Part shown: positions 5,432 through 53,872 of the stretch, piece after piece
How positions within the stretch are numbered: the first letter of the stretch is position 1
Layout of the letters: every line of letters begins with the position of its first letter
Source: Trichinella spiralis
Lineage: Eukaryota
Direction: 5' to 3'
Assembly: GCF_000181795.1 (NCBI RefSeq)
Contig: NW_003526941.1
Location: 9,278,607 to 9,342,606, forward strand
DNA: 64,000 nt
Notes under the pieces: model-generated
The model's database searches: none
Told to the model about the DNA's origin: nothing
The model's input: only the letters and a program-made list of their open reading frames with translations
Translations under genes and position numbers: made by a program

Positions 5432-6333
5432 TTCAATTTAGATTTTTTCCATTACAATAACTTTTGTGCTTTCATTTTAGGTATTTAAATTTCGATTATT
5501 CAGCTTTGCTTTCCTGATGAGCCGTGTTAGCCGATTCGTCATACTTGCCGGCAGATGTACGTACAACAGCAAAACCAATCTAGCAAACAACTTAACACAA
5601 CCAATTAAACACAACCAAGGTTTTATTTATACTTGTAAAAAGTGATTTTCTACATTTTCATCTCATTTTGTGCTCACAGACAGTAGCTTATACTATTTGT
5701 ATGTTGCTTTATTTCTGCAGTTCTTTTTCTTTTATTTTCTCAAAAATTCCATTTATACTCTTTCTAATTTTTGGAAAATTCTCCCGTATAGTTTATTTTG
5801 AGTTTGAGAAAACTCATAAATTGATAAATTTATTTTTACAAATACACAATATATTCCTTCAATATTATAAATTATCATAATAATATTATACATTTAAGTG
5901 CCATACTAACTCGGCGCCTTATTTTCCACTAGGTAAACATAACCTTGGTCAGAAAATTATATATTTAGTAATATGATGGTGAACACTGCCGACGGCATTC
6001 TGCTGAATGCATTTTATGTTATTCAAATTTTGAAGAGATTTCCTACATACAAAAGTCAGCTTATTATTTGACTATATTGCTGATGAAGAGACTGCGTTGC
6101 GTTATTTATTATTTGGTCATTTTTAGTGCATCATTTCTACAAATTCCACGTAAATGCTGAACAAAACATGCTGTTAATCACGAGCAGCTGGATATTTCAA
6201 CGGTTCTACCTATATCAGCGTCTACTTACTTTACTACCAACGGTCCTACTGCCAGGTATGAAGTTTTACTTATTTGTTGTTCTATCTTTATTAGTTTCTA
6301 TCATAATTTTGATCTTTCTTAACTCCCGGTCCA
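5432..6333 (+). repeat. Repeat arm A, inverted copy at ~23362-24265
   Basis: Reverse-complement match, e.g. 5470-5530 vs 24160-24222. The ORFs 6126+ and 23337-23567 are near-identical with scattered substitutions. The arm ends at the gap at 6334. Confidence 0.9.
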
Positions 6334-6343
6334 NNNNNNNNNN
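6334..6343. other. Scaffold gap (10 N)
   Basis: Run of N. Confidence 1.
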
Positions 6344-12569: not shown

Positions 12570-13503
12570 TTTCTATGTAAAAAATTATCAATATGTTTTC
12601 ACATCCCTATATATTAAAGTGAGATTATTTATCACTTGCTGCAGTTCGTCCGTCAAAATTCTATTCTTGCTCCGTTCAAAAAATCATTTCTTCACTAATA
12701 CGCTGTAATCTATTGTGCCGGCGAGATTTATCATATTCTCTGAATTTATGTGATCAATTGAAATCATTAATGAAAAAACCTTTTCTCTTCAACTATTTGA
12801 AATTTTATGCTCAATAGCTTAGCTATTTTTTGAAGAATGAAAACATTTTCTTAAAATGTTAGATTATAATTGATAAATTCAACGTGGCGTGCGATGCAAA
12901 ATTTCTGTGAACATAATCCACTGAATTTTGAATAAATAGCATGTAAATTTTGCACGATGCTTGCATTACAATATAGCAAATAGTGCCATTTTCAAACATT
13001 CTTTAACCACAACACTTATGCGTGATTTTCCGCAATTGATATAGACGTCGCGTTAGAGTAGTGCACTTGATAAAAATGAATGCACTTCTGCATTTCTTCA
13101 TTTGCAGAACATCTAGACAACTTTCAGCACAGTTTATGACAGTTGATTAGAATTTAAAAAATATTTCATTTATAATTTTCCCGTTAAATGTATTAATTCT
13201 GACAATCAACTGAAATGAATTTCTGAAAATAATCATATGCTCTATTGATTAATACTTGATTTTCTTAACGTAATCATTACAAGCTTTGGGATTGTCCAAA
13301 AATCCATGATTTTGTGCATTAATATGCTTATTATCAACTTTATGATTCCCTTAACTTTACATTGAAACTAAATATGTCGTTATTTTAATTTTCTTTCGCT
13401 TTTTCAAACATTATTCATTGCTTTTTTAAAAGTTCACTTTAAATGTAATAGTTTGCGATGGAAATGCACGCGAAATGCGACTAAAAATAAATAAATTAAC
13501 AAG
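12570..13503 (+). repeat. Repeat arm B, inverted copy at 20971-21903
   Basis: Essentially identical reverse complement (ends TTCTATGTAAAAAATTATC and TAAATTAACAAG both match; one 1-nt indel seen). Each copy abuts a gap. Confidence 0.92.
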
Positions 13504-13879: not shown

Positions 13880-14375
13880 AAAAAAATCAGGAACAATTGT
13901 TCGTAAAATAGCAGTTTTTTCAGCTGATAAAATCAGAAATTTTTGAATAAAAGTTATCAAAATGTTGTTTCTCAATTTATTATTGTAATTTATTTATTTT
14001 CTGTCGTACTATGCCCTCTAAAATCCTATTCTTGTCCCGTTTTCATGAGTAGTTTTTTGACAAATATGCCATTGGAAATTTCGCTAACAAGATACGCCAT
14101 GTTTTAAAAATTTTCCTGATTGATTGATACCATTTTAGCAAAGATTTCCTTTTCGAATAAACTTAGCTGTTTTTTGAAGCTTGAAAGAGGTTTATATAAA
14201 TTTCGGTTGTAATCGATACATGAATGCAAATTAGCAAACTGTCAAAAATTTGTATCAACATAATCTGAGGAACTTTGAATATATAGCATATAAATTTTCA
14301 CATTGATTATATCACAGCAAAGCAATGCTACCTTTCCAAACATTCTTCAACCACGCCCCTGATGCGTAATCTTTA
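13880..14375 (+). repeat. Diverged direct paralog of part of arm B
   Basis: Colinear shared blocks: CTATTCTTG, CTTAGCT.TTTTTTGAAG, AACATAATC...TTTGAAT..ATAGCAT.TAAATTTT, CAAACATTCTT.AACCAC. GGAACAATTGTTC is shared with ~21940-21955 (inverted). Confidence 0.65.
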
Positions 14376-15567: not shown

Positions 15568-16486
15568 TATATGAACTGTGTAAATAAAAACGTAATAAAT
15601 TTCATCATCTCGTTTAATAACGATGTTCATAACATTCATTCCACTGCGTTATTACTGACGGAAAATTAGGTTGTTCTTCCGGAGGCAAAGTAAATAGTCA
15701 TTTGCATAATTTACTTAATATTATACATTTAAACAGCACTTTGTTACATTAGGTTATTCAGTTGACTGCAGTGCTATCAGTCATGTGCGTGGTCAACTAT
15801 AATTCCGCTCCTCAACACCAACAATGAAATATCGGTAAGTTGGATTTGATAATGTTGTGGTGGTATGCTATGCATGTCATTTGCATCACTTTACTAATAT
15901 GGTGAATGGAAACTGACGGGTTTCTTTTCTATTGTTGTTATTGCTGACTTTCAGGTACATCAGATGCTGGAGAAGAAGAAGTACGTATTTCAGTTTTTTA
16001 TTTTGAGATTGCTGCATTAATATAATTTACTTTCAGAATTATATCAATGAATATGAAATAAACTGATTCTGAAAAGTAAGTAATTGAATATGGTTCCAAT
16101 GCATCGAAATAATTTTGCACTCTTTTTTATTTGTAATATGTTCATTTTTGTTTAATTGAGATTGTAGGCTAGCTACGCCATTAGCACCACATTACTTTGT
16201 AAAGACTGAAGGTAAAATTATTTCAATTTATATAACACTGCATTAATAACTTTTTAGGAAATTTCAACTTTCCTTATTCATTATCTCACTGCTCACTTTT
16301 CTTATTCATTGTTACATGACAAATAATGCAGCGATATTACCGGTATGTTTATACTTTTTGTACACTTTACTTAAACTATCAATAGCAGTTAATATTAAAC
16401 CTATATGAAAAAGCCCTATTATGAAAAGTATAACTTTTCAGAAGAAAAGATGAATAACAGTGCATCATAATTTTTGAATTCCATTC

Positions 16487-17650
16487 ATTTTGTAATCTAA
16501 TATTTTATCTTTGTTTTATTATTTTTTTAGTTTAACCATCTCTCTGGATGTTTCCATTGCGGTCTGTCATGTTCCTTCATCAGCTCCCCTTTCAGGATTA
16601 CCTCATCGTCAGAGTAAGATTTCATGCGGTTTGGAATTGCAATAGGTTACGTTCACGCAGTAGAACAGTTTCAGTTAGCTTGAATTTCATTCGTTTTTGA
16701 TCTGATGTATTTTTTTGATTTACTTAATCATTTTTTTTAGTTGAATCATCAACATGTCGATTTTTCTATCGTAAAAGACAAGTGTCCCAATTGTTCCTTT
16801 TATTTCCTAATTGTAAGAGTAAGAATGAATTTGATTTCTTTGACGTAATCTATTTATACGATGAAGAATATTTAAGAGGTTTGGATACACAGTACAATGT
16901 GCTACATTGGTTGGTTGAGCCGGCAGATTTGAGTATTTCACGTGTATTAAATTAGATAACATCTCTAATAACACATTGCATCATCTCAGCTGAACTGTTT
17001 TGGAGTTTTTTTCGCTCTGGACACCGTGGTATATCAGGATCATCAATTTGCTTGAATTTGCTGCTAATTGCAGTTCGGTATTTTGTATTTTGTAATCTAA
17101 TACTTTATTCTTTTAGTTTACCCATCTTTTTGAATGTTTCCATCGCGGTCAGTCATGTCCCTTCAGCAGCTCCCCTTTTAGGATTACCTCATTGTCAGAG
17201 TAATAATGAATTTCATGCGGTTTGTAATTGCAATTGGTTACGTTCAAACAGTGGGGCAGTTTCAGTTATCTTGAATTTCATTCGTTTTTGATCTGATGTA
17301 TTTCTTTGATTTACTTAATCCTTTTTTAGTTTAATCATCTCATTGTCGTTTCTTCTACCGTAAAAGACAAGTGTTCCAATTCTACCTTTTATTTTTTAAT
17401 TGTAAGAGTAAGAATGAATTTGATTTCTTTGACGTAATCTATTTATACGATCAAAAAGGTTTGGATACACAGTACAATGTGTTACACTGGTTGGTTGAGC
17501 CGGCAGATATGAGTATTTCACGTGTATTCACATCTCCAATAACAGATTGCATCATCTCAGCTGAACTGTTTTGGACATTCTTTCTCTCTGGACACCGTGG
17601 TATCTCAGGCTCATCAATATGTATGAATTTGCTGATTGCAGTTCGGTACG
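16487..17650 (+). repeat. Two diverged tandem units of ~590 bp (16487-17080, 17087-17650); 16522-17240 is arm C with an inverted copy at ~20215-20960
   Basis: Repeated blocks such as CAGCTCCCCTTT.AGGATTACCTCAT, GGTTTGGATACACAGTACAATGTG and CATCATCTCAGCTGAACTGTTTTGGA. The ORFs 17052+ and 20122-20433- share their first ~47 aa. Confidence 0.9.
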
Positions 17651-18143
17651 TTTAGTGTACAGATTTTGTTCATGATATCAGCAATGGATTTTTTCATATC
17701 TTCAAACTGCGACATTTCTTGTGATGGCGCTGTGAGTTGAAATTGTCGGTTCATTCCCCAGTGTTCCCAGTGTGATTTCACTTATCATGAGTAAGTCCCA
17801 TCATGGTTTCACTTATCAATAATGATTGTAATTTTAGCAGATTACGTTAAGAGTACGTATGCATCCTTGTAACGTACAGGTGCACTGGATTACGTCGTCC
17901 CGTAAAGCGTGTACTGATGCCAACGCGTTCACCTGGACATAAAGGCGTTTTCTAGATGCCCCAATGTGCCTTTGCTTACCACAGAAAGTAAGCATCGAGC
18001 TCCTAATTGCTGTACAGTTGTGATCACTTTGCTATTCTATGTATGTATATGTATATGCGTTTTCCGTTATTTCCGTTATTGACTTTCACTGTTTTTTAGA
18101 TGTCAAATCGCCAGTCGCATGCCGTTTGTCGTCCTTGATTGTC

Positions 18144-18400
18144 CAGGTAATCTGAAGGTTTAGGCAACCCTTCAGAATTAGATGATCATCCGGCATTCTG
18201 GTACCGCCCAGGTAAGCAGAGTAAAGGTAAGCAGAGTAAAGGTAAGTATGATAGCGCAGGTGAATAGAGTGAACGTAATGGTAAGTATGTCAGCGGATTC
18301 GTATAGAATAGAAATAGTCGACGAGGTAAGTATGAAGCATAGGTGAGTAGTGGACAAGGTAAGTATTTCTGGTAAGTAAAGGTAAATGGACAAGGTAAGT
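18144..18400 (+). other. Array of ~12 5' splice-site-consensus motifs (G|GTAAG / G|GTGAG / G|GTAAA)
   Basis: GT at about 18147, 18212, 18227, 18242, 18260, 18281, 18326, 18343, 18359, 18372, 18382 and 18394, with mostly non-repetitive purine-rich spacers. Confidence 0.85.
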
Positions 18401-18439
18401 CTGTGACGGGAAGGGGTGAACAAGTGGTAATAAGAGTAT

Positions 18440-18968
18440 AAAAAAGTCAATATGCAAATTTCTAAAAAAACCATTGAACACAGAAGCAATGAAACACCCT
18501 CAGGTGGTTTATGCAAATTTTAAATCGCCTGGGGAAAATATGCAAATTTTTATTTGCCCTGAGGCGTAGCCTGAGGCAACGCCTGGGGCTAAATTTCTGA
18601 AAAACCGAAATTTTTTGAAAAAATGCCTGAGGCATAGCCTGGGGCGTAGCCGGAGGGCATTAAAAATTTGCATATTACCCCCAGGCAATTAAAAATTTGC
18701 ATAATCACCCCTTAAGGTCAAATATTGTGCAAAAAATCGCCCTTGGCGTAGCCTAGGGGCAATATGCAAATTTTATTTGCCCTGAGGCGTAGCCTGAGGC
18801 AACGCCTGGGGCTAAATTTCTGAAAAATCGAAACTTTTTGAAAAAATGCCTGAGGCATAGCCTGAGGCGTAGCCTGAGGGCATTAAAAAATTTGCATATT
18901 ACCCCAAGGCAATTAAAAATTTGCATAACCAACCTTTAAGGGCAAAATAATGGTATAGCCTAAGGCTG
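18440..18968. repeat. Tandem of two ~224-bp imperfect palindromic units built from ATGCAAAT and GCCTGAGGC-type motifs
   Basis: 18538-18720 repeats at 18762-18945. ATGCAAAT at 18452, 18511, 18540, 18764 and ATTTGCAT at 18666, 18695, 18890, 18919. GCCTGAGGC at 18569, 18625, 18792, 18848, 18860, plus variants at 12-bp spacing. Confidence 0.9.
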
Positions 18969-19065
18969 TATTTTGAATTCGAAATTTTCAGTGATACTCT
19001 GTAGTGATTCATTTACGTGATTCCTTCAAGTGATGTACTTCATGTAGATGTGATATCCCTCTACA

Positions 19066-19153
19066 TCACTTACCTGACTTACCTTTTCATTTATACTTAC
19101 CTATTCCCTATATACTTACCTTCATACTTACCTTCCCTTTCGTAGACTTACCG
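19066..19153 (-). other. Array of 6 5' splice-site-consensus motifs (GGTAAGT on the minus strand)
   Basis: ACTTACC on the + strand at about 19068, 19077, 19095, 19114, 19125 and 19146; five are ACTTACCT (AG|GTAAGT). Confidence 0.85.
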
Positions 19154-20214
19154 TTACTTTCAGTTGAACGCAACGTGGCTGTTTGCATAGCCATGTTGCG
19201 ATTTAAAATCTAAAAGATCCTATAATACTTTCCTAAACGTACCTGGAAAACCTTCAAAACTCTGGTACCATAACGATTGCAAATGGATATCTGAAAAGGA
19301 ATAAATACCTGATAAACTGATAAACGTATATAAAAGTAATATGTACTTATAGTAGAGTATCACGTCATTCAAACAAGCAGTAACGCTTTCAAGTAACGCA
19401 TATTCAATAACGCAGTTACCAAAGAATGCCACTTCATCTAACAATTGTAATTTAGATTGTAAAAGTAGAGGATGGTAAAATTGATAAAACATCCATATTA
19501 TAAAAAGGAATTGACAATTCTTTCTTACTCTGTGATAAGCCATGTAGGACTGTTGGGAGACGTATTTGCCTAAACAAACACAGAGTGACATCGGCATTGT
19601 AGTCGGGGAATGATGCAATCCACAACCATAATGAACAGAATCTGCACTTACTGAATTTTGACATACCACTTTGGGAACGTCCTGATAGTAGCTCGCACTA
19701 ACGGTATAATTTACACGGACAACAGCGCTGATCGACTGTATTGCAATTCGATAACTGCTACCATTACAATCGTCTTCTTCTTATTCACCTTCTTCTTACT
19801 CTTATGATAAGCGAACCACAGCGGGAGGGTTCAGAAACGCTACTACGCCACCTTCAACTAACGCTGAGCGCCATCAGTAGGAATCCCATATCAGTTTGAA
19901 GGTGCTGATATCATCCATTACTATAATAATCAAAATGTGCACTGAATTATTTTTGTGATGACAGAATTAGAAAGCACTGAGGCAAACTTATCACAATGGA
20001 AAGAACTCATAAACAGTTCGACTGAAATGGCATTATCTGTTACTATTATAAATGTTATATAAATTTAATATAAAATTATAAATCTAAATATATCTAATAA
20101 TGTATGCTGCTTGTTGTCTAATTAAACAAACCGATTACTTACTGAATTTTGAAATACCTTTTGAAAGCGGTTATGGAAAGTCGAACTACCATCGTGGAAG
20201 TACAAGTACATTGA

Positions 20215-20960
20215 AACTGTTCTGTTGACGTAACCAATTGCACGTAACTTATTGCAATAACAAACCGCATGAAATTCATTATTACTCTGACGTTGAGGTA
20301 ATCCTAAAAGGGGAGCTGCTGAAGGGACATGACTGACCGCGATGGAAACATTCAAAAAGATGGGTAAACTAAAAGAATAAAGTATTAGATTACAAAATAC
20401 AAAATACCGAACTGCAATTAGCAGCAAATTCAAGCAAATTGATGATCCTGATATACCACGGTGTCCAGAGCGAAAAAAACTCCAAAACAGTTCAGCTGAG
20501 ATGATGCAATGTGTTATTAGAGATGTTATCTAATTTAATACACGTGAAATACTCAAATCTGCCGGCTCAACCAACCAATGTAGCACATTGTACTGTGTAT
20601 CCAAACCTCTTAAATATTCTTCATCGTATAAATAGATTACGTCAAAGAAATCAAATTCATTCTTACTCTTACAATTAGGAAATAAAAGGAACAATTGGGA
20701 CACTTGTCTTTTACGATAGAAAAATCGACATGTTGATGATTCAACTAAAAAAAATGATTAAGTAAATCAAAAAAATACATCAGATCAAAAACGAATGAAA
20801 TTCAAGCTAACTGAAACTGTTCTACTGCGTGAACGTAACCTATTGCAATTCCAAACCGCATGAAATCTTACTCTGCCGATGAGGTAATCCTGAAAGGGGA
20901 GCTGATGAAGGAACATGACAGACCGCAATGGAAACATCCAGAGAGATGGTTAAACTAAAA
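20215..20960 (-). repeat. Repeat arm C' (inverted copy of 16522-17240)
   Basis: Reverse-complement identity with a few substitutions (e.g. CATCGTCAGAG vs CATCGGCAGAG), diverging towards 20215-20295. Confidence 0.9.
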
Positions 20961-20970
20961 NNNNNNNNNN
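20961..20970. other. Scaffold gap (10 N)
   Basis: Run of N. Confidence 1.
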
Positions 20971-21903
20971 CTTGTTAATTTATTTATTTTTAGTCGCATT
21001 TCGCGTGCATTTCCATCGCAAACTATTACATTTAAAGTGAACTTTTAAAAAAGCAATGAATAATGTTTGAAAAAGCGAAAGAAAATTAAAATAACGACAT
21101 ATTTAGTTTCAATGTAAAGTTAAGGGAATCATAAAGTTGATAATAAGCATATTAATGCACAAAATCATGGATTTTTGGACAATCCCAAAGCTTGTAATGA
21201 TTACGTTAAGAAAATCAAGTATTAATCAATAGAGCATATGATTATTTTCAGAAATTCATTTCAGTTGATTGTCAGAATTAATACATTTAACGGGAAAATT
21301 ATAAATGAAATATTTTTTAAATTCTAATCAACTGTCATAAACTGTGCTGAAAGTTGTCTAGATGTTCTGCAAATGAAGAAATGCAGAAGTGCATTCATTT
21401 TTATCAAGTGCACTACTCTAACGCGACGTCTATATCAATTGCGGAAAATCACGCATAAGTGTTGTGGTTAAAGAATGTTTGAAAATGGCACTATTTGCTA
21501 TATTGTAATGCAAGCATCGTGCAAAATTTACATGCTATTTATTCAAAATTCAGTGGATTATGTTCACAGAAATTTTGCATCGCACGCCACGTTGAATTTA
21601 TCAATTATAATCTAACATTTTAAGAAAATGTTTTCATTCTTCAAAAAATAGCTAAGCTATTGAGCATAAAATTTCAAATAGTTGAAGAGAAAAGGTTTTT
21701 TCATTAATGATTTCAATTGATCACATAAATTCAGAGAATATGATAAATCTCGCCGGCACAATAGATTACAGCGTATTAGTGAAGAAATGATTTTTTGAAC
21801 GGAGCAAGAATAGAATTTTGACGGACGAACTGCAGCAAGTGATAAATAATCTCACTTTAATATATAGGGATGTGAAAACATATTGATAATTTTTTACATA
21901 GAA
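20971..21903 (-). repeat. Repeat arm B' (inverted copy of 12570-13503)
   Basis: Reverse-complement identity. Confidence 0.92.
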
Positions 21904-23361
21904 ATTTTAAATCTTCTCAGCTGAGAAAATTGCGCATTTCAGAACAATTGTTCCTGATTTTTCGTTTAGGCTTTACAGAACCCGTAAATTTACGAATTTT
22001 TGATTTACACAATCCTGTTTCTAGATAATGGTTTAGAAATGATAATTATTCGAAATGATAACTGCTAATTGCATATCTAAAGCGTGATGATTCTCAAGTA
22101 TGATGCTCATTCAGAATTTATATCCTCTGCAAACAGTCACACTGAAAAACCATATAAAGCGAAAGCAGAAAAGCATTAATAAATAGACTGAAAATAAAAG
22201 CAAATAGTCACAGGTTTGATAAACCTGAGATCCTCAAATGATATTGTTACGATCAGAATAGGATTCCAATAATGACAATTCAAGACAAGATATTCTAAAA
22301 TTTCATTTTCTCGGCAGATCAAGACTGTGCACTGCAATAATAATTGTTCTTGACTTCTGTTTAAGCATTACATCAACTATTTGCAATTAAGCAAATTCCC
22401 TAAATATTAATCATTCAGAAGAAATAGAGTTATTTTAAATTTGGTTGTTATAATAACAAATTATTATTAATATTACTTTGTTTGCTTCCTTTAGTTACAA
22501 CAACATGTTTTAACCCATTTGGCATGAGATCAACAATTGCGCATCATTTAAAATACATGTAATTCAAGTGTTCACAATATGATTTCCATTTCAGAATAAC
22601 CCATTTTATGGTTCGTTGCTGTTTTGCTATGTAACTGTTATGCAGATGTCTCAGTAGATTTGAATACATTCTACACTTGCATGATTTCAGTTGCTATAAG
22701 CTGTAAACTTATCTATTTTTATTCTATTTGATAATTGTTGCAAACAGAATATTTTGAAGTACATTTGAAAGAAGCATTACATTGTTCGAAGAAATAAGAA
22801 AATAAGTATTAAAAAGGATATGTTTCGTATCAGTAAAACGTTCTATGAACTTTGAAGACAACAATGAGCATTCTATTCAACGAAATTATTGTTTGCATTA
22901 CGAGAAGAAAACTTTCCGTCTGTACTTTGAGACAATCAGGTATTAATTGTATCAGTAGCAACAGTGATGGAATTTTGTATAAACAGATCGTAATAAATAG
23001 AGTGATAAACTGTGTGAAAATGAATGAGTTTTACGTTTGATGAGTAGTAAAAGTGTTTTTGAAAGTATCAATGAGGTAGAAAATATTTTTAATGAAAATC
23101 TTTCGATCACGTTTTACAAACGAGCATTGTAGTTTATATCTGAATTCCACATGTTGATCCTTAATTTCTTATTATATATTTGTATTTATTCAAAATAATT
23201 ATTATTCCCATTTCTGAATCACACTGCACATATTTCGTTATTGTGAAGTTGAAATGTATGTAATAAAATGCGAAATGTTTGATATAAAAAGTTTTAGTTT
23301 CAATTCACTAATGTTTAAAGTGTATGTGATCGTTCGCTAGTAAAAATGATCTTCTTCAATG

Positions 23362-24265
23362 GACCGTGTGTTAAGAAAGAAAAAAATTATGATAGAAACT
23401 AATAAAGATAGAACAACAAATAAGTAAAATTTCATACCTGGCAGTAGGACCGTTGGTAGTAAAGTAAGTAGACGCTGATGTAGACAGAACCGTTGAAACG
23501 TCCAGCTGCTTGTGATTAATAGTATTTTTTGTTCAGCATTTCCGTGGAATTTGTAGAAATGATGCACTGAAAATGACCAAATAATAAATAACGCAGCGCA
23601 GTCTCTTCATCAGCAATATAGTCAAATAATAAGCTGACTTTTGTATGTAGGAAATCTCTTCAAAATTTGAATAACATAAAATGTATTCAGCAGAATGCCG
23701 TCGGCAGTGTTCACCATCATATTACTAAATATATAATTTTCTGACCAAGGTTATGTTTACCTAGTAGAAAATAAGGCGCTGAGTTAGTATGGCACTTAAA
23801 TGTATAACATTATTATGATAATTTGTAATATTGATGGAATATATTGTGTATTTGTAAAAATAAATTTATCAATTTATGAGTTTTCTCAAATTCAAAATAA
23901 ACTATACGGGAGAATTTTCCATATATTAGAAAGAGTATAAATGGAATTTCTGAGAAAATAAAAGAAAAAGAACTGCAGAAATAAAGCAGCATACAAATAG
24001 TATAAGCTACTGTTCGTGAGCACGAAATGAGATGAAAATGTAGAAAATCACTTTTTAGAAGTATAAATAAAACCTTAGTTGAGTTTAATTGGTTGTGTTA
24101 AGTTGTTTGCTAGATTGGTTTTGCTGTTGTACGTACATCTGCCGGCAAGTATGACCAATCGGCTAACACGGCTCATCAGGAAAGCAAAGCTGAATAATCG
24201 AAATTTAAATACCTAAAATGAAAGCTCAAAACAAATTATTGTAATTGAAAAATGTAAATTGAATT
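23362..24265 (-). repeat. Repeat arm A' (inverted copy of 5432-6333)
   Basis: Reverse-complement similarity with multiple substitutions and small indels. Confidence 0.9.
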
Positions 24266-40155: not shown

Positions 40156-43100
40156 AAAAGCAATCAGTACCGATTTGCCGTATCTTCGAAACCTTCGAGC
40201 TGCTTGGAAATGACCATCTGCATGCCGAGCTGTTTTTGCATTTCTTTTTGCCTGGCTTCGAAAAACTCTTCGAGCACTTTGAGACGCGTCACCGCTTCCA
40301 TCGTCTGCATCTCCGCCTGCTGTTGGGCATTTTTCATCGAATCCCGTTCGCAGCGGAGCTGCTCCAATTCGGCTTCGACCGCCAATCTGCACCGTTGCTC
40401 TTTCTCGACTTCGGCGCGCATCTTTTCCAATTCTCCGTTCGACCGGCCCAACTGGGCGTACAATTTGGCCAAATCCAAGCCAACATCCACGTCGTCAGTC
40501 GGCTGTTCACTTCCTTCACAAACCCCCGTCGCCTCTTCGTCTTCTTCTACATTCCAGTCGGCAACGCCCTTCAACTGGTCGTTGGAACGTCGCCGACACT
40601 GCCACAATCTTTGGACCACCTCCTTCAGTCCGTGTATTTCGACTTTCGACGCCTCGAGTTCGGCCAACAACTGCCCTTCGCGTTGCTTCAATTCGACCGT
40701 CGAAGCCAGTTCCACTTCGCGCGACTGCAACTCTTCGACCAGCTTCTCGTTGCGACTCTTCTCCCATTCCAAATTGGCGTACAATTGTCGAATTTGTTCG
40801 TTCAACTGCTGCCGTTCAGCTTCGTGCCCGCGGTCCAGCTTGTCGGCTTCTTCTCGCAGTTCAACGAACCGTCGATCCGCGTCCTGCAATTGGCGATCCT
40901 TTTCGGCAATGGCCGCTTCCATCGCTTCCAGTCGACCCTCTTCCAAAAACTCACTACCCACCCCTCCACGAGCGTTTTCCAATTCACGACTGGCACGTAC
41001 CAGCTCGGCTTCGACACCCTTCAAAGCGGCATCTTTGCATTTCAATTCCGCCAATATGCGACTCTTCTCCTCTTGCAAATCGTCGGCCTGCTCCAACTTT
41101 TCCACCAGTCGCTCGTATTTGGAAAACAACCGCACATAATCGCTGTCGTTGGCGTAAACTTTTCGCTGCCAGCGTTTCCAAAGCAGACGATCGACCACGA
41201 AAACCATCAACGAAACGCAAGTCAAAATCAACAAACTCGAATCGTTCCAACCGAACGTCGTCGCTTTTGGAAGAAAAGTCTCCCCACTGGAGTCGTCAAC
41301 TGCGAACAACAGACTCCAGATGCTGGCAAATGCCCGTCGCGACTGGTCGAAATACAATTTCACACCTCGGATCAACAACGTCATGAGATCCGTCGAAGCG
41401 GGCATTTCAGGAACACCGACCACAGGCCGGCGGTTCGTCTCGTCGCACTGTTCCTCTTCCTTGTCGCACGTCTGCGATATCCAAGAATCTTCTCTTGGAA
41501 ATTCATCTGGAAAAGTTTCCTCAACTTTCACATTGTCATTGTCATCACTTGCATCATCAACTACGGAAGTGTAATTCGAAATCTCGCCACCCCCGGCAGC
41601 AGCACTACTGCTGCTTCTCGAATCATGATCATCATCATAAGACGAGCTAATGCTCAATTCTTTCTCTTCTTCTGAGCTTTTACCATCATCAGCAACAGCA
41701 CTGCTTCGTGAATCATGATGATCATCCGACGAGCTGACGTTCAACTCTTTCCCTTCTTCTGAGCTTTTACCATCACCACCACCACCACCACCAGCAGCAG
41801 CAGTACTGCTTTCTGGTCCATGATCAACATCAGACGAGTTGACGTTCAACTCTTTCCTTTCTTCTGATCTTCTACCATCATCAGCAACAGTACTGCTTCG
41901 TGAATCATGATGATCATCCAACGAGCTAACGTTCAATTCTTTCTTTACTTCTGAGCTTTCACCATCACCATCATCAGCCGCAGTACTGCTTTTTGGATCA
42001 TGATCTGTATCAAGCGAGCTGACGTTAAACTTTTTCCCTTCTTCTGAGCTTTTACCATCATCAGCAGCACTACCGCTTCTCGTATCATGATCATCATAAG
42101 ACGAGCTAATGTTCAATTCTTTCCCTTCTTCTGAACTTTTACCACCACCATCGGTAAAATTGTTCTCCTCTTTCAACTCATCTTTCATTTTATTCATCTC
42201 TTCTGTGAACAAACTGTCCCCATTCACAGCATCATCACCGGAAGGCAATTGCAAATTGTCGACGGTCGATTTTTGCAAATTTTTTGTAAGCTTCATGTCG
42301 ACACTTTTCACATCTTCCACCGGGTGATTTTTCAACTGAGAATCAACTTTGACCATATTTCTGTCCACTCCTGATTCTGCATTTTCAACAATTTTCGACA
42401 AATCGCTTAACGTTTCATTCAATTTCGAAGCATTGCCAATTTCTGCTTTGTCGGATGTGGCAGAAAAATTGGAAGCCGCAAACTGGTGCTGCTTCAGATC
42501 GTCGTCACCTTCCATACCGGGACCAGAACGTGCACTGCTAACGTTCGCATGTTCATCTTTTGCAACATCTGCATCTGATGAATGGCCATCATCACGCTGA
42601 ATATTGCTTTCTTCGTTCACTTGGCGTCGTTGTTCGTCAACCGGCAAAGCATCTCCATTCGCTTCTGCCAAATTTGGCAAAATTCCCTTCGATTTTCCAG
42701 TGCTACTGTTGGACAAAGTGGTCTGTAGAAAATCTTCAAATCGATCTTTGTCGTGCACAGTTTCACGGAAAATTGCCACATTTTCTTCAGAAGTGAAAAA
42801 TCGTCTCGCAGTGTCACTGCGAATTACCTGCACAAATTTCGCTCATAGAATAATCAAATGAGAACAATTCACAATTGCAAAACTCACTTGTCTACTGTGG
42901 AAATCTACCACGTACAAATTTTTATCTTCTTCTATAGCTGTTTCAATGAATTTTAAAAAGGCCGTAAAATTCAAACTTCTTGGAAAAATATGATCCTGAA
43001 AAGCACAATCAAAAATAAATACATACAGTTGTACGATCAACCGCAAACTACGCACTCAATTTGTACAGAAATATTTTTTTAATAATGTAAAAATTGAAAT

Positions 43101-47370: not shown

Positions 47371-48617
47371 TTTCAAAACTTTTTCTTCAACATGATATAA
47401 TGTTCAGTTAACGAGAATTTTGTAATCAAAAATTATAAATATATTTGTTCTGTCATAATATTTCAAAAAAAAAAATCAATTAAAATTTATTTTTAATTTC
47501 CTACGCACTGTTTGATATCAATATTGCGATAAAATTATTTCTGATCTTTCCGTTTTCAAACAAATTAATTTTGCTGCTCGAACAAACTCTGTTACCGAGA
47601 ATATAAGTTCCATTTAATGATAAAGATATTAAGGCGCACAAAACACAGTATTGACCAACAACAAATATTAAAATTTACAGTTAAAAATAAAACTCTTACT
47701 TAATGATGTTTTCGGTGTTTGTCCTTTTTTGTCACGCTGTTGTGCATCATACTGTAGTGTAGTAGCGTGATATTTTTAATGAAAATTATAAAAAAATTAG
47801 TGATGTTCAATTAGTGATTCAGTTTTTTGCTGCGTTCAGTGTAAGCTAATAACAACGTACTACATTAAGCTTCCAATATTGTCAGAAAATGCAGTTGCCA
47901 CTGCTTATCACGAATGCCACTAATTGAAGCCTGCAGTAATCGAGTAAGTAAACATTTGAAAAAATTTGAATAAATTAACGTTATCTTATTTTCTCTTTTC
48001 AACACAATCTACAGTTGTAGTATACTGCGTAAAAAATTACTGTTTCTTTTAATGTGCTGTAAAATTATTCATAGCATAAAGTGTCAAGAGGAGATTGATT
48101 GTATTTTCAGATCGCATTTGTTAAAGTCTATTAAAATTAAATTTAATATCTACGAGGTATTGCAATTAAGTAGCAGCTAATCTGCTTGCAAATAATCTCG
48201 TTTAATTCAGAATAAATTATTTGCCACAACTTTGTGATTCACGAGTATAATTTTACTGATTGTCTATTTTTATTGGTTTTCAACTATTTTTGTACGATTA
48301 TCAGACATAGAAATGTTTGTCATTTGTAAATTTCATTTGCGTATATACATATATAAAGCGAAATGTTATTTGCGCAAGCAATGAAAATATTTCAGTTGAA
48401 GTTCTTTCAATTTAAAGAGGCAATGAATAACAAGAATATATTTTATAAAAAATTTTTATTAAATTTAAATATAAAATGACATATTAATTTATAAGTGATT
48501 ATTAGTTAAAATAATACAATGATAATAATAATTGTAATAATAATAATGAAAAAACAGTAATTGAGAAATTGAAAAAAATTAGTTTCGTTAAGTTGGTTAA
48601 AATTGTCTTTAAAATTA

Positions 48618-50355
48618 TTACACGGCAGTCTCTGCTTCTTCATTGTTTTTGTCCTCGCCCTGGTCAGAATTATTTTTATCCTATAAAAATAGAAGCATAT
48701 AAGTAAGTATATATTTGAATATGAATAATGTCGAGTAGCATAAATCTAAATTATTGCATTACTTTTGGGTTTTCGGAGAAATCTTCTGCCATTAAAGTGG
48801 CACTTATTTCTATTTTAACATCAAGATCATATTTATCTTCAGAAGTGTTTTCAACAAATTTCAATTTTTTCTTTATCGACTTTATCAATTCATCTTCGTC
48901 AATGCAGTCAATTATCAAATTTTGCAAAGCACGTTCGTTTAACTCGTAATCGAGTGGGATTTTAAACTCTTTGTTGTATAGTGTTGATGATTGATCTTGA
49001 ACTGATTGATGCTTCGAATCAGACATTGCTGCAGCATATCCGGTATGATTTTCCATATATTTCTGTAACTGTTCTGTACCTTGTTCTTCTTTTGTGCCAG
49101 TTTCTTCTCTTTTGTGATATTCTCGTTCTATATCTTCAATTGTACAGTCATCATACTCCCCTTTTTCTTTGTATTTTTCAGATTCACTTTCTTTGAATTC
49201 GAACTCATTTTCTGTTGTTTCATCAGTTTCTTCGTTTTCATCTTTCTCTTGGACTTTGTTTTCATATTTATTTCCATATTCTGTGGTATAATGGCCACTT
49301 GTAAATTCGGATTCATCGTTACTTTCATTTCTGGGATTAGTATCTGCCAAGTATTCTTCATCCATCCATAAATTATCCACGGATTTTGTTCTTTCATCTA
49401 TGAGATATGTCTCAGGAGGATCTTTTGTGCATTTGGTTTTTATGAAGTATTCAACTTCTTTTTTGCCTTTTTTCACTAACTTGTCACTTATCTCATAGTT
49501 ATGGAATGTTGATTCAACATTTCCCAAGCAGAGTAGCGTAATACAGTAAGAAATAAATGCGTTAGCATCCTCACTATCTGGGAATCGAATTTTCAGTGTG
49601 AACAATGATGCTTCATTTGGTACTTCTAATCTTAAGGATAGAACCTGTCCTTCTCGTCGTATAAACTTCACTTGCTGCCATTGAAAATAATTGACTTCGT
49701 CAAAAATACCAAATATCTTGATCCCATGGATATTTACATGGAAAAAACTGGATTGTTCTTCATCAGTGTAGAATACTTCATGCCCATATACGTCTGCATT
49801 TGTTGCAACTTTCAAATATTCTTCCATTGCTTGGAAACGATCATCAAATGAAAGTTTGTTGAATTCGATTATCACATCATTGTTCCATTTCTCTTTTTCC
49901 ACGTTGTACTTTGTTGTAGTCCAAGATGGCATTGGTGAACTGCTGACACGTCCGTTTTTAAATCTGTCAACATCTTCTATATATTTTTCATAAAATGCGA
50001 TGGCCATCATCTTTACAGCATATTCGTATGGTGGAATAAGTTTTCCATTCCATACTCTTTCATATGTATTGGTGTACATAATTTTAAGCAAAACTGGGTT
50101 TTTCATGAACTTACAATCAACGGGTGGATAGCAAATTGGTATGACTTTCAGGGTTGCCTCTTTTTCTTTAACATACTTTCCAATTTTTTCATCTTTTTCC
50201 AGCACGTGATCTTGGTATGTTACTATAAAAATTTGGTAATCGTTGATAGCTAGTGGCGGGAAGATTTTCTTCAAAATTTTGTTGACAGTTGTGCTTTTTT
50301 TGACAATGTAATTGAGTACGATAAATTCCATCTCAACGCTCAGTTTTAGTTTCAT
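48618..50355 (-). CDS. Divergent ERM/merlin-like FERM-domain protein, copy 2 (exons 50355-48763, 48680-48618; alternative ATG at 50376)
   Basis: Colinear paralog of 27808-29545, with QAMEEYLKVATNADVYGHEVF and the same terminal intron and exon. Confidence 0.8.
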
Positions 50356-50780
50356 GTTTCTCGTGTGGAAGAACATGGAAGAATGAATAGAGTTGTTAAA
50401 ACATGTTGCACATCAATGAGCAATTTAAACTAAAGCTGCTTTAAAATGTCATAAAATGTGAAGTTTTTTAATGTTTGAAAGTCGTTTGTTTAAATTGATT
50501 TTGGTGTAAATATAAATTTAATGTAAATCGAAATATAAATTTTTGGAATTTGCAGCTGATATAAATAAATTAAAATTGTAAATATAAAATATGTTGATTT
50601 GATTGCAGTATATGTCAACTGTTCTATTATAATTGTGTGCATTTTTAGTATGTATCAAATAAATTTGTTTGAAATAAGTTGTCGCAATAACTTCTGTTTT
50701 GAGATTGACAATTGAAAGTATTTTAATTTTTTTGCGCATCGATTAACTTAATTACTGAAAACAAAAAAAAATCTTGTTGT

Positions 50781-53700
50781 TTAAAACCAAATCATCTGCT
50801 TGCAATTATAGCAGCACAAAGTGTTCGATGGAAATGCAAAAAATTGCAAGCCCTGTCCAGCAATGCAAACGATGACCGTATGGGCAATAATTTGAGCGCA
50901 GATGGCCAGTGGATCGGCAATGTCGATGAACTGGGCATAACAGAGGTGAAAATCCATGTCCACACACGCGTGCCATAAGTAAAGTCGTTCATCAGTAGAA
51001 ATGGATAAAAAAACCCTTTCATTGATTGAACAAACAGCAGTGACAGTGGACAATGAAGGTGGTTTCAGTTGTTTGAAATCAACTTCATCCTGATTTTGAA
51101 AAAGTTGAATATTGGTTGTGAATAAATTTCCCGACTCTGCTCCAATGACGTACCAGAATGCTGATCCGTCGCATGGACGACACTGAATAGATGACAAGCC
51201 ACATTTTTCGACTAACATTTGCATATGCCACTCTTTTTGCTCTTGACCAACGAAAAACTCACTTCCAGTGTTCACTTGTCTCACATATAGCTGACCGTTT
51301 GTACAAACAGCTGCACAAATGGCGCACTGTTTATTGTCGTCACGATTCACAAGCTTCATGGAAGCTATGAAAGAGTTACAGGGCAACATTAGTCGATCGC
51401 TTCGATCGACCACTTCAGCGTTGGTTTCATTCCACAGGAAAGCTTTCACATATCCGTCACATCTGGCTGCCAAAATCAGATACTGATTCTCACCATCGGC
51501 CATTTTCATCGGCATGTGGTCAACGGCTACATAACGAAAATCGCTTTCATCCTTCATTGAACCGCAAGGCCGTAGACCTTGTTGCTTCTGCACCAACCAG
51601 CAGCACAACTGCCCTCGGCCTCCAGCGGAAACTAACAAATTTTCACAACAACGTATCGAAAATATTGCCGATATGTGCAAATAGTATCTTCTGACCAAAG
51701 ATAATTGTCGTCCATTTTGGTCCAGATTCCACAAACACAAAGAAGTATCATCGCTGGACGAGACGAACATTGTACGACTGATGAAACACAAATCTGTAAT
51801 TCGACGCACATGTGCACCTCGTTGGATGCAGTTGATTTGCGGTTGCCAATTCAAAATTTCAACCTGACCACGTTTAACAAATGCAAGATGAAAATTCAAT
51901 TTCGAACAACATCTCTGCTCTTGGATAATCAAATCATAGGACCGATGGCCACCACCGCAATGAATTTCTGACAACATTTCGCCGGAATTGAAGTCGAAAA
52001 TTCGAAAATGATCCGCATGAAAGCCCACAATAAGCTGACGCTGTTGGTTGAAAACAATGAACCGACTAGGCCACTCCATGCCTCGACAAACCCTCTCGTG
52101 GGCAGGCTTCTCGTTCAGCTTTTCAATATTCCACGTATTCACGCAACCGTCTCTGCCTGTACTGTAAAATATTCCATTCAACAACATGAATGCTGTCACT
52201 CCATGTGATCCATGTATACGAAAATAACTGTACATTGGTCGACTCTAAAATTTAACATGAGCATGTAGAATAAAAATGACAACGAAGATGTATGTATTTT
52301 GAATAACCCAAACGATCAATGAATGATTAAAATTGAAATTCATACTATAGTGCTTTTTTGCTCTTTGTCAAATAGAAAAAAATGTACAGATCCATTGCGG
52401 TCACCGACAGCTAAAAAGCAACCTGAAGAGCTTTGTACAAGCATTGCTGCGGATGGCCACCGCTGTCTTCCATTTGGTAAAGTCAATTCAATTCGAATTA
52501 ATTTTGCTTCTCGTTTATTGCTAACGTCGAATAAGTGCATGCGGCCTTGTTCAGTGCAAGCTAACAGCATATTGCCATTGTCAATTAAATGTAAGCTAAA
52601 ATACTTTTGACATTGCACAACACCGGAGCAGTCGTGTAAATTTTCTTCATCAAAAAGATACAGACTACCTTTCAGGCCACCGAAAACGATCAGACCATTT
52701 TCTTTCGATTGATCTACAGCGCATGATCTGAGATTGCTATCCGTAAGTAATAAACGTTTGGAATTTTTGTGAAAATGATATACATTTCCACTAGATGAAA
52801 TGCAAAACAGAGACGATGGTTCAACGGTTGTTATGTGAACAGTTTTCAATATATCACTGTCGGCTAACGAATTGAACTGATAATGGACAATGGACGAGAG
52901 TAAATTCAAGGAAAAGCATGCACCTGAATCAGAACCCAAAATTGCCTTTTCTGATTCGGAATCGTAATGCAAAGCACGAAGATTACCTTTCTTGGTTTCA
53001 GTTCTCGAAACGAGCTCGCCATTTTGTTTCCACAAACAAACTATTCCATCTTCACCTGCGGTAATAATTCTGTCATTTGCAAAGCGAGTCCGCCATACAC
53101 GTCCATGATGTTCTCGCAAAATGTGCGTGAGAATTATTTCACAACTTTCCCATTGCCTCCACGACAGATACTGACCAGAAACTAATGAAAAATGATGCAA
53201 CTTCCACAAACAACAACTTCGATCATCCGATACTGAGCACAATAGTTGACTATGCAGCGAATAGTCGATATCAAAAATAGCTCCATCGTGAGCGTCGAAA
53301 ATTTTAAAAGGATTCCCATTCGAATAGTAAGGAGACCAGATGAATATTTGTTTAGATGCATTACCATTGACAATGAACAATTCGTTATCATGCATTCCAA
53401 AAATTCGACTGCAGTAGGATACGCATTGCTTGGTACATTGTACATGTTGAAGTTGTTCGAGTTCAACGTTGTATACCAAAGCCACATTGCGAGAAGTGAC
53501 AAGCAAAATTCTGTTTCCAGTGAGAACTTTAGCTGAGCATATCCAGTCGTTAATGTTGCATGTTTCAGTAAGAAAAGAAATATTCAATTCATTTTGAGAA
53601 TCTTCAAAAAAGCGACCAATTCGAAAAGAGCGCACCCCGTAAAAACAGGCAATCGATTTGTAGAAATCCAAACCATGAATTGCATCGCTAGGAAATATTT

Positions 53701-53872
53701 CGTATCTTGCATACTTTTCCAATTCAGAAGACTCGAAGATTACTAACTGACGACCTTGGCCAGTGAGATAATAATTTCGCTCACCGTGTTTTATATTTGT
53801 GACAAATCTGTGAGGCAATATTCTATCCATTTGACTGGAAGAATATTCTGTTGGATTCATTTTCATTTCCAT
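50781..53872 (-). CDS. WDR6: WD repeat protein 6 (Trm734/WDR6), 2 exons: 53872-52346, 52244-50781
   Basis: Multiple WD40 repeats (AHDGAIFDIDY...CSVSDDRSCCLW, HHGRVW...ITAGEDG, YSTGRDG), the WDR6-type CGGGHRSY motif and HISA...LVSAGGRGQL. A phase-0 GTATGA...TTTAG intron joins the two ORFs. Confidence 0.85.

What the first reader, a model, noticed from the sequence alone, without database searches (positions are those of the whole stretch)
18144..19153. Two inward-facing arrays of 5' splice-site (U1-binding) consensus motifs bracket a palindromic core
Seen: ~12 donor-like motifs (mostly GGTAAG, six GGTAAGT) in ~260 bp on the + strand (18144-18400) and six GGTAAGT in ~90 bp on the - strand (19066-19153). 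The two arrays are not reverse-complement copies of each other and their spacers differ, so only the motif is conserved, which simple slippage does not predict. Both point toward the ATGCAAAT/GCCTGAGGC core, and the module sits at the axis of a large inverted duplication. Established: AG|GTAAGT pairs with the U1 snRNA 5' end, and U1 binding can define donors, suppress premature polyadenylation and retain RNA on chromatin. Inference: a strand-symmetric device that loads U1 on, or traps splicing of, any transcript entering from either side. It could be a splice-trap or boundary, a multi-donor trans-splicing cassette, or a mobile element that splices itself out of host transcripts in either orientation. 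I do not recognise it as a described element.
Basis: partly seen in the sequence, partly recalled or inferred. Interest (0 to 1): 0.88.

Follow-up and report, generated by a model that had tools for sequence, protein, structure and literature searches.

The report
Splice-donor clusters ending convergent worm RNAs
In the parasitic worm Trichinella, two spliced RNAs that likely code for no protein run toward each other across a large inverted duplication, and each ends in a cluster of near-perfect intron-start signals that were not seen used for splicing and that likely bind the splicing factor U1 to keep the RNA in the nucleus.

Summary
The arrays are real: 6 GGTAAGT on + (18241-18400) and 6 on - (19068-19152), versus about 0.2 expected in local shuffles. 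The DNA is Trichinella, matching T. spiralis. Stranded RNA shows two spliced transcripts running inward onto the core; their upstream introns are removed, but no joint starts at an array donor in 5 runs, and contigs cross the arrays unspliced. Depth is low and hidden loose-end rows leave trans-splicing untested. The arms are old inverted copies of one non-coding, many-exon unit (61-64% alike inside, 99-100% outside), so the symmetry is inherited from duplication. The core is a separate dispersed Trichinella repeat. Arm plus core is shared by 8 Trichinella taxa, but donor number turns over: where T. spiralis has four donors, T. nativa/T6 have one. Best reading: terminal clusters of unused donors that likely load U1 and retain or destabilise the RNAs (0.4). 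Rivals: neutral slippage (0.3), trans-splicing (0.15), read-through hairpin (0.1). A new variant of a known mechanism; not a mobile self-splicing cassette on present evidence.

The parts
18144..18402 (+). Left donor cluster: 12 donor-like sites (GT at 18147, 18212, 18227, 18242, 18260, 18281, 18326, 18343, 18359, 18372, 18382, 18395)
   Evidence: crossed unspliced by contigs of X13, X14, X16 and partly X19
19066..19153 (-). Right donor cluster: six GGTAAGT (GT at 19151, 19131, 19119, 19100, 19082, 19073)
   Evidence: crossed unspliced by X13 record 5, X14 record 12 (the same record has the upstream intron removed) and X19 record 8
18450..18965 (.). Core: two about 223-bp self-palindromic units (18527-18722, 18751-18946, 93% alike) rich in ATGCAAAT and GCCNNNGGC; a dispersed Trichinella repeat
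   Evidence: many variant loose ends and much higher summed contig depth than the flanks; also in T. pseudospiralis and at other T. murrelli loci
15623..18420 (+). Left many-exon, likely non-coding transcription unit (5' end not mapped; 15623 is only the first place hit by relatives' gene models)
   Evidence: RNA on + over 17250-18420 in stranded run X22; start from tblastn of predicted proteins
17402..17458 (+). GT-AG intron of the left transcript
   Evidence: joint 17401/17459: 3 reads in X22, one X14 contig
19052..20960 (-). Right many-exon, likely non-coding transcription unit; continues into the assembly gap at 20961-20970
   Evidence: RNA on - over about 19050-20237 in X22; stops in all three frames of the spliced form
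19291..19346 (-). Last observed intron of the right transcript (GT-AG), upstream of the donor cluster
   Evidence: joint 19290/19347: X13 and X14 contigs, 1 read in X22
19438..19528 (-). GT-AG intron of the right transcript
   Evidence: joint 19437/19529: X14 and X13 contigs
19570..19651 (-). GT-AG intron of the right transcript (read in an allele with a small difference at the acceptor side)
   Evidence: joint 19567/19651: 3 reads in X22, one X14 contig
19921..20157 (-). GT-AG intron of the right transcript
   Evidence: joint 19920/20158: one X14 contig
17540..17840 (+). Diverged inner arm, homologous (61-64%) to 20042-19755 on the - strand
   Evidence: blastn E 6e-10 and 2e-09; shared about 190-bp repeat unit
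16525..17247 (+). Outer palindrome arm, 99% complementary to 20238-20960; holds a 586-bp tandem unit
20238..20960 (-). Outer palindrome arm (right)
12570..13503 (+). Far arm, 100% complementary to 20971-21904; both begin at assembly gaps, so about 3 kb of the right arm is likely collapsed into the gap
   Evidence: the collapse is inferred
19010..19050 (-). Predicted 11-bp hairpin just past the last right-hand donor, near where RNA coverage ends in X22 and X19

Best explanation
The two arrays are clusters of strong 5' splice-site motifs at the 3' ends of two convergent, spliced, likely non-coding RNAs that arose by an old inverted duplication; they were not seen used for splicing and likely load several U1 snRNPs that would keep the RNAs in the nucleus and block or destabilise their 3' end formation. 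Shown: the motifs, the convergent spliced transcription, the lack of an open frame, the homology of the arms, retention of the arrays in the commonest RNA form. Inferred: that U1 binds, that the clusters grew by short slippage events and were kept by selection, that the transcripts end shortly after the clusters, and the effect on export or decay (by analogy with human work). The core is a separate dispersed repeat lying between the two 3' ends.
For: Direction: left-arm RNA is + and right-arm RNA is -, consistent with the GT-AG joints in the same reads. Five upstream introns are removed through weaker donors such as AA/GTACAT and GA/GTAAGA, while 0 listed joints start at any of the 17 array donors in 5 runs although TTTTTCAG-type acceptors lie 250-500 nt downstream. 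X14 record 12 and X13 record 5 run from the spliced 19347/19290 joint through the right array into the core. Across the 17 sites identity is 0.82-1.0 at -2 to +6 and 0.71 at +7, with only G for A at +3, and falls to 0.35-0.59 at +8 to +15. Spacers are near random (0.37-0.40 vs 0.29-0.33) while motifs are 0.88 alike. The spliced right RNA has 14-17 stops per frame over 720 nt; relatives' gene models read the same DNA in different frames; no Pfam family passes cut-off in 27 peptides; no Rfam match above threshold. Short matches to array words lie next to core copies at other loci (joints 18703/19068, 18703/19084, 19104/19252; sides only 20-21 nt). In human cells a 5' splice-site motif in the terminal exon inhibits export and 3' processing (PMC4380460, abstract) and with a poly(A) junction triggers nuclear decay (10.1101/2024.07.23.604837, abstract).
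Against: U1 binding, nuclear location and 3' ends were not measured. Raw-read depth over the arrays is only 2-8 and comes from few molecules; 69 and 32 loose-end rows were hidden, so rare or trans use cannot be excluded; contigs drop rare forms, and X13, X14, X19 are RNA only by guess. Most reads are 90-99% alike, so they may come from another allele or paralog. Donor number is not conserved: the stretch with four donors in T. spiralis has one determined GGTAAGT in T. nativa/T6 and the first site reads GGTAAC. Of 11 listed allele differences in the arrays 4 fall in the motif footprint, about the 5 expected from its 136 of 286 share (the variant tables were cut to 40 rows), so no purifying selection is shown. 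Sites were selected by motif, which inflates motif identity. Retention by U1 has not been shown in nematodes in anything I read.
Confidence: 0.4

Rival explanations
1. Neutral by-product: one or two ancestral donors at the end of a decaying, still transcribed pseudogene were multiplied by short slippage events; the clusters do nothing that selection sees.
For: Recent short duplications are visible (15-nt unit at 18210-18246 and 19-nt unit at 19077-19122; families D6-D8); spacers are related above chance on the left; T. nativa/T6 lack three of four donors in one stretch; allele differences do not avoid the motif; the arms are themselves decayed tandem repeats.
Against: Spacers have drifted close to random while 17 motifs stay near consensus; both arms, only 61-64% alike, carry a cluster at the same place; one perfect GGTAAGT is kept in T. 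nativa/T6 with changed flanks; array words recur beside other core copies.
Confidence: 0.3
2. Multi-donor cassette for trans-splicing or back-splicing: the transcript ends after the cluster, bound U1 holds the RNA in a spliceosome, and one donor joins an acceptor on another RNA (or an upstream acceptor), as at Drosophila mod(mdg4).
For: Anatomy fits: last donor followed by further U1-type sites and no cis joint; coverage falls across the left array (about 6.5 to 1.6 in X22, 8.9 to 4.5 in X19) and ends past the right one (0 at 18940-19033 in X22 and X19). mod(mdg4) uses a U1-binding pseudo-donor (PMC4387717, passages) and poly(A)-independent termination (PMC6237743, abstract).
Against: No loose end or go-back joint at an array donor among the rows shown; the upstream exons code for nothing, so there is no obvious product; no Sm-type site within the stretches scanned after the donors, so not an SL RNA; X13 and X14 contigs continue into the core.
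Confidence: 0.15
3. Read-through device for double-stranded RNA: U1 on the clusters prevents termination, so RNA runs through the core into the opposite arm and folds back (or meets the convergent RNA), feeding Dicer and DNA methylation, possibly against the dispersed core repeat.
For: Outer arms are 99-100% complementary; in a read-through RNA the two arrays are predicted to pair with each other (about 66 pairs, no shuffle control); some opposite-strand reads lie on both arms (up to 1.9 and 2.7 deep); T. spiralis makes Dicer-type 23-25 nt RNAs linked to DNA methylation (PMC4323106, passages).
Against: X22 has no coverage at 18423-18469 and 18940-19033; opposite-strand reads may come from paralogs or library leak; no small-RNA data were examined; array-array pairing follows trivially from the inverted motif.
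Confidence: 0.1
4. A mobile element with subterminal motif arrays (or one that splices itself out of host transcripts).
For: Inward-facing short motifs with variable spacers resemble transposon subterminal repeats (recalled); the core is dispersed, and array words lie next to some other core copies.
Against: No terminal inverted repeat or target duplication bounds arrays plus core; no joint removes the core; the arrays belong to the arms, which are homologous far beyond them; the arrangement is fixed in 8 taxa; no transposase is seen in the arms.
Confidence: 0.05

Closest known systems
5' splice-site motif in a terminal exon as nuclear retention and decay signal (U1-70K, ZFC3H1/PAXT; PMC4380460 abstract; 10.1101/2024.07.23.604837 abstract)
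   Same: Unspliced consensus donors left in the last part of a spliced, likely non-coding RNA.
   Different: Known mainly from human reporters and misprocessed transcripts with one motif; here 6-12 motifs are packed into 90-260 nt, on two convergent RNAs in a nematode; retention not tested.
Drosophila mod(mdg4)/lola trans-splicing donor intron with U1-binding TSA (PMC4387717 passages; PMC6237743 and PMC13490949 abstracts)
   Same: Last donor followed by further U1-type pseudo-donors; transcript may end without a cis acceptor being used.
   Different: mod(mdg4) is protein-coding with known acceptor exons and one conserved core motif; here no acceptor partner, no coding product and no trans joint were found.
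Papillomavirus late 3' UTR elements and U1 interference (PMC11240274, PMC2367729; search listing and start of abstract only; the tandem-donor detail is recalled)
   Same: U1 sites in a terminal exon that would inhibit polyadenylation; several sites act together (recalled).
   Different: Viral mRNA control elements or engineered U1; not genomic lncRNA pairs in a palindrome.
Trichinella spliced-leader RNAs (PMC7668243, passages)
   Same: A donor used in trans in the same organism.
   Different: SL RNAs are short, have one donor, three stem-loops and an Sm site; here donors are tandem within long spliced RNAs and no Sm-type site was found.

Membership tests
Terminal-exon 5' splice-site retention element | Consensus 5' splice-site motif | tested here: met
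   17 sites, AG/GTAAGT-type consensus; pairing judged against the recalled U1 consensus
Terminal-exon 5' splice-site retention element | Motif stays unspliced in an otherwise spliced RNA | tested here: met
   right arm: X14 record 12 and X13 record 5; weak for the left arm, where crossing contigs show no removed intron; low depth
Terminal-exon 5' splice-site retention element | Motif lies in the last exon, before the 3' end | tested here: inconclusive
   coverage ends near 19050 in X22 and X19 but continues into the core in X13 and X14; no end pile-up
Terminal-exon 5' splice-site retention element | U1 binding and nuclear retention or decay depend on the motif | not testable with these tools
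   needs fractionation, pull-down or reporter
mod(mdg4)-type trans-splicing donor | Chimeric joints from the donor to acceptors on other transcripts | tested here: inconclusive
   none in rows shown; 69 and 32 loose-end rows hidden
mod(mdg4)-type trans-splicing donor | Common coding exons upstream of the donor | tested here: not met
   stops in all frames; no Pfam match
mod(mdg4)-type trans-splicing donor | U1-binding motif conserved across species | tested here: inconclusive
   one GGTAAGT kept, three absent in T. nativa/T6, inferred from two predicted proteins
Spliced-leader RNA gene | Single donor followed by an Sm-binding site in a short RNA | tested here: not met
   no Sm-type site in 18200-18520 (+) or 18950-19160 (-); no Rfam match; long spliced RNAs
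DNA transposon / MITE with subterminal repeats | Terminal inverted repeats and target-site duplication bounding arrays plus core | tested here: not met
   no such bounding repeat among the inverted repeats listed (25 longest of 47 shown)
DNA transposon / MITE with subterminal repeats | Dispersed copies of the whole unit | tested here: inconclusive
   core dispersed; 20-21 nt array words beside at least two other core copies; no genome held
Ordinary minisatellite | Spacers as conserved as the motif, regular period | tested here: not met
   spacings 9-45 nt; spacer identity 0.37-0.40 vs motif 0.88; only two short stretches found by TRF

The most novel reading that the evidence does not exclude
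Trichinella carries a family of spliced non-coding RNAs that end in purpose-kept clusters of 6-12 U1 sites; at this palindrome two of them face each other across a dispersed repeat, forming a natural spliceosome-loading device that either tethers the RNAs on chromatin, donates exons in trans, or drives read-through hairpin RNA into the Dicer pathway of a worm that lacks piRNAs.
Probability: 0.2. Interest if true: 0.8.

Novelty: new variant of a known kind. Interest (0 to 1): 0.45.

Why it matters
Unused donors are known to hold RNAs in the nucleus, but mostly from human reporters and faulty transcripts. A natural, dense, independently renewed cluster at the ends of a non-coding RNA pair would be a clean test of what several U1 particles do at a 3' end (retention, decay, read-through or trans-splicing), in a nematode lineage with SL trans-splicing, DNA methylation and no piRNAs. 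It also shows that the hypothetical proteins annotated here in nine Trichinella taxa are likely false gene models.

Tried and rejected
No whole genome is held, so the genome-wide density scan and core co-occurrence test could not be run. Coding repeat (Gly-Lys or Val-Ser): spacings are not all multiples of three and frames have stops: rejected. By-eye likeness of arm peptides to chemoreceptor TM3-TM4: no Pfam support in 27 peptides: dropped. snoRNA, miRNA or SL cluster: only one sub-threshold Rfam match (MIR5070, E 0.64, on the core hairpin), no shared fold among the repeat units beyond scattered hairpins, no tRNA: rejected. Recursive-splicing ratchet points: only the sites at 18147 and perhaps 18212 follow a pyrimidine-rich AG; the rest sit in purine-rich spacers (C content 5-8%): not favoured. 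Selection test on allele differences: no signal, tables truncated. Donor accessibility by folding: left sites mostly less paired than average, right sites not: uninformative. Earlier-findings look-ups by place and sequence were empty. Paper searches for a description of this locus or repeat found none; the library lacks most subscription and older papers, where early Trichinella repeat descriptions may lie (recalled), and no supplements were read.

Full report
Observation. The arrays are in the sequence as stated. The + strand carries 12 donor-like sites from 18147 to 18395, of which 8 are GGTAAG and 6 GGTAAGT; the - strand carries 6 GGTAAGT at 19068-19152. Twelve of the window's 20 GGTAAGT lie in these two stretches. 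In 2000 dinucleotide shuffles of each stretch the mean count was about 0.2 and none reached 6. Over the 17 sites from 18212 onward, column identity is 0.82-1.0 from -2 to +6, 0.71 at +7 and 0.35-0.59 from +8 to +15; the only change at +3 is A to G. This is the footprint of U1 pairing (established knowledge), though the sites were chosen by the motif. Spacers run 9-45 nt between sites and are 0.37-0.40 alike against 0.29-0.33 by chance, significantly so only on the left; motifs are 0.88 alike. The two arrays align no better than spacer-shuffled controls (206 of 1000 reach the score).

Organism and setting. An ORF in the right flank matches T. spiralis Tsp_12203 at 99% over 38% of its length, and all 4 hits are Trichinella hypothetical proteins. 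The module sits at the axis of a palindrome: 16525-17247 pairs with 20238-20960 at 99%, and 12570-13503 with 20971-21904 at 100%, both of the latter starting at assembly gaps, so part of the right arm is likely collapsed. Inside these arms the two sides are still homologous at 61-64% (17540-17840 with 20042-19755) and are built of a decayed repeat of about 190 bp that carries its own donor and acceptor signals. The inward-facing symmetry of the arrays therefore follows from an old inverted duplication of one unit; the near identity of the outer arms suggests later homogenisation (inferred).

The core. 18450-18965 holds two self-palindromic units of about 223 bp, 93% alike. In laid contigs its summed depth is several hundred to about 1100 against about 7-55 on the flanks in X13 and X14, with many variant loose ends; the tool warns that this is no copy number, but the variants show other copies. 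Its translation is found in 11 predicted proteins, all Trichinella, including one of T. pseudospiralis and two of T. murrelli that match only the core. It is best treated as a separate dispersed repeat.

Transcription. Five of 24 listed runs were laid. X22 is raw stranded RNA: first mates lie on - over the left arm and on + over the right arm, so RNA runs + on the left and - on the right, toward the core; the GT-AG joints in the same reads agree with this. Five introns are seen: 17402-17458 (+), and 20157-19921, 19651-19570, 19528-19438, 19346-19291 (-). They use weaker donors than those in the arrays. No listed joint in any of the 5 runs starts at an array donor, although acceptor-like TTTTTCAG sites lie in the core downstream. 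X14 record 12 and X13 record 5 pass from the spliced 19347/19290 joint through the whole right array into the core; X19 record 8 crosses it and stops at 19052. Left-array contigs (X13, X14, X16) also cross unspliced but show no removed intron, so they may be DNA or nascent RNA. Limits: raw depth over the arrays is 2-8 from few molecules, most reads are 90-99% alike to the window (another allele or paralog), contigs drop rare forms, and 69 and 32 loose-end rows were not shown, so joints to acceptors outside the stretch are untested.

Coding or not. Joining the right-arm exons by the observed joints (seen in different runs) gives 720 nt with 14-17 stops per frame and at most 40 codons from a Met. 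Predicted proteins from nine Trichinella taxa hit the arms but read the same DNA in different frames, and none of 27 peptides passes a Pfam cut-off. Rfam gives one sub-threshold match in 12.5 kb. The units are likely long non-coding RNAs or transcribed pseudogenes.

Conservation. Gene models run from an arm into the core in 8 taxa (T. spiralis, nelsoni, murrelli, nativa, britovi, patagoniensis, T8, T9), and T. nativa and T6 models run from the right arm onto the minus strand of the left arm, so the convergent layout is shared. No arm hit came from T. pseudospiralis among the hits returned. The T. nativa and T6 peptides are two frames of one DNA over 46 nt (best of 300 random pairs: 10 nt), which fixes one GGTAAGT at the place of the 19100 donor and GGTAAC at the place of the 19151 donor; the two donors between are absent. 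So one perfect donor is kept while the number turns over. Among 11 listed allele differences in the arrays, 4 are in the motif footprint, about as expected by chance; two keep or improve the consensus (18232, 18374) and two remove the weak site at 18260 in one run. Joints 18703/19068, 18703/19084 and 19104/19252 in X13 and X14 point to at least two other loci where array words lie beside a core copy, but the matching sides are only 20-21 nt.

Mechanism. I commit to terminal clusters of unused donors that likely load U1 and retain or destabilise the RNAs (0.4). In human cells such a motif in the last exon inhibits export and 3' processing (PMC4380460, abstract read) and together with a poly(A) junction recruits nuclear decay (10.1101/2024.07.23.604837, abstract read). 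Rivals are neutral slippage in a decaying transcribed pseudogene (0.3), a trans- or back-splicing donor like mod(mdg4) (0.15; PMC4387717 passages read, PMC6237743 and PMC13490949 abstracts read), read-through into a hairpin for Dicer (0.1; PMC4323106 passages read; the arrays are predicted to pair with each other in a read-through RNA, without a shuffle control), and a mobile cassette (0.05). It is not an SL RNA gene (PMC7668243 passages read).

Novelty. Five paper searches found no description of this locus or repeat; the library is partial and no supplements were read. It works like a known kind of element (unused donors in a terminal exon) but membership is unproven because binding and retention were not testable. 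The density of the clusters, the paired convergent layout and the turnover of donors make it a new variant worth a direct look, not a demonstrated new system. Interest 0.45.

Noticed in passing
window 27541-30351 (+) and 47813-50613 (-): A second inverted duplication in the window: two intronless FERM-domain ORFs (27730-29412, 48751-50412) whose 3' halves are 94-98% identical while the 5' halves are 79% alike, suggesting partial gene conversion.
   Followed up: partly
window 5432-6333 and 23360-24263: A further inverted pair (95-96%, about 900 bp), one copy ending at the assembly gap 6334-6343; relation to the main palindrome unclear.
   Followed up: no
window 18450-18965: The core is an apparently undescribed dispersed Trichinella repeat dense in octamer (ATGCAAAT) and GCCNNNGGC words, which recall POU and AP-2 binding sites (recalled); it is present in T. 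pseudospiralis too and pollutes gene models.
   Followed up: partly
window 17560-18570, runs X13, X14, X19, X22 versus X16: Two sequence types about 3% apart with indels: X16 matches the window exactly over 17950-18604, the other runs carry a shared different type; allele or paralog not resolved.
   Followed up: partly
window 19844-19884 and 17852: Loose ends in X22 (13 and 8 reads) show further expressed paralogs of the 190-bp arm unit elsewhere in the genome; a T. spiralis model (T01_6072) suggests tandem copies.
   Followed up: no
window 12580-13029 and 13949-14373: A decayed direct repeat (61-71%) inside the far left arm.
   Followed up: no
window about 26100-27250: By eye, a decayed hAT-like transposase remnant with stops; not tested.
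   Followed up: no
window 40164-42842 (-) and 50781-53872 (-): A long coiled-coil membrane-protein ORF with an 87/180-bp internal repeat, and two adjacent long WD40 ORFs; ordinary genes.
   Followed up: no
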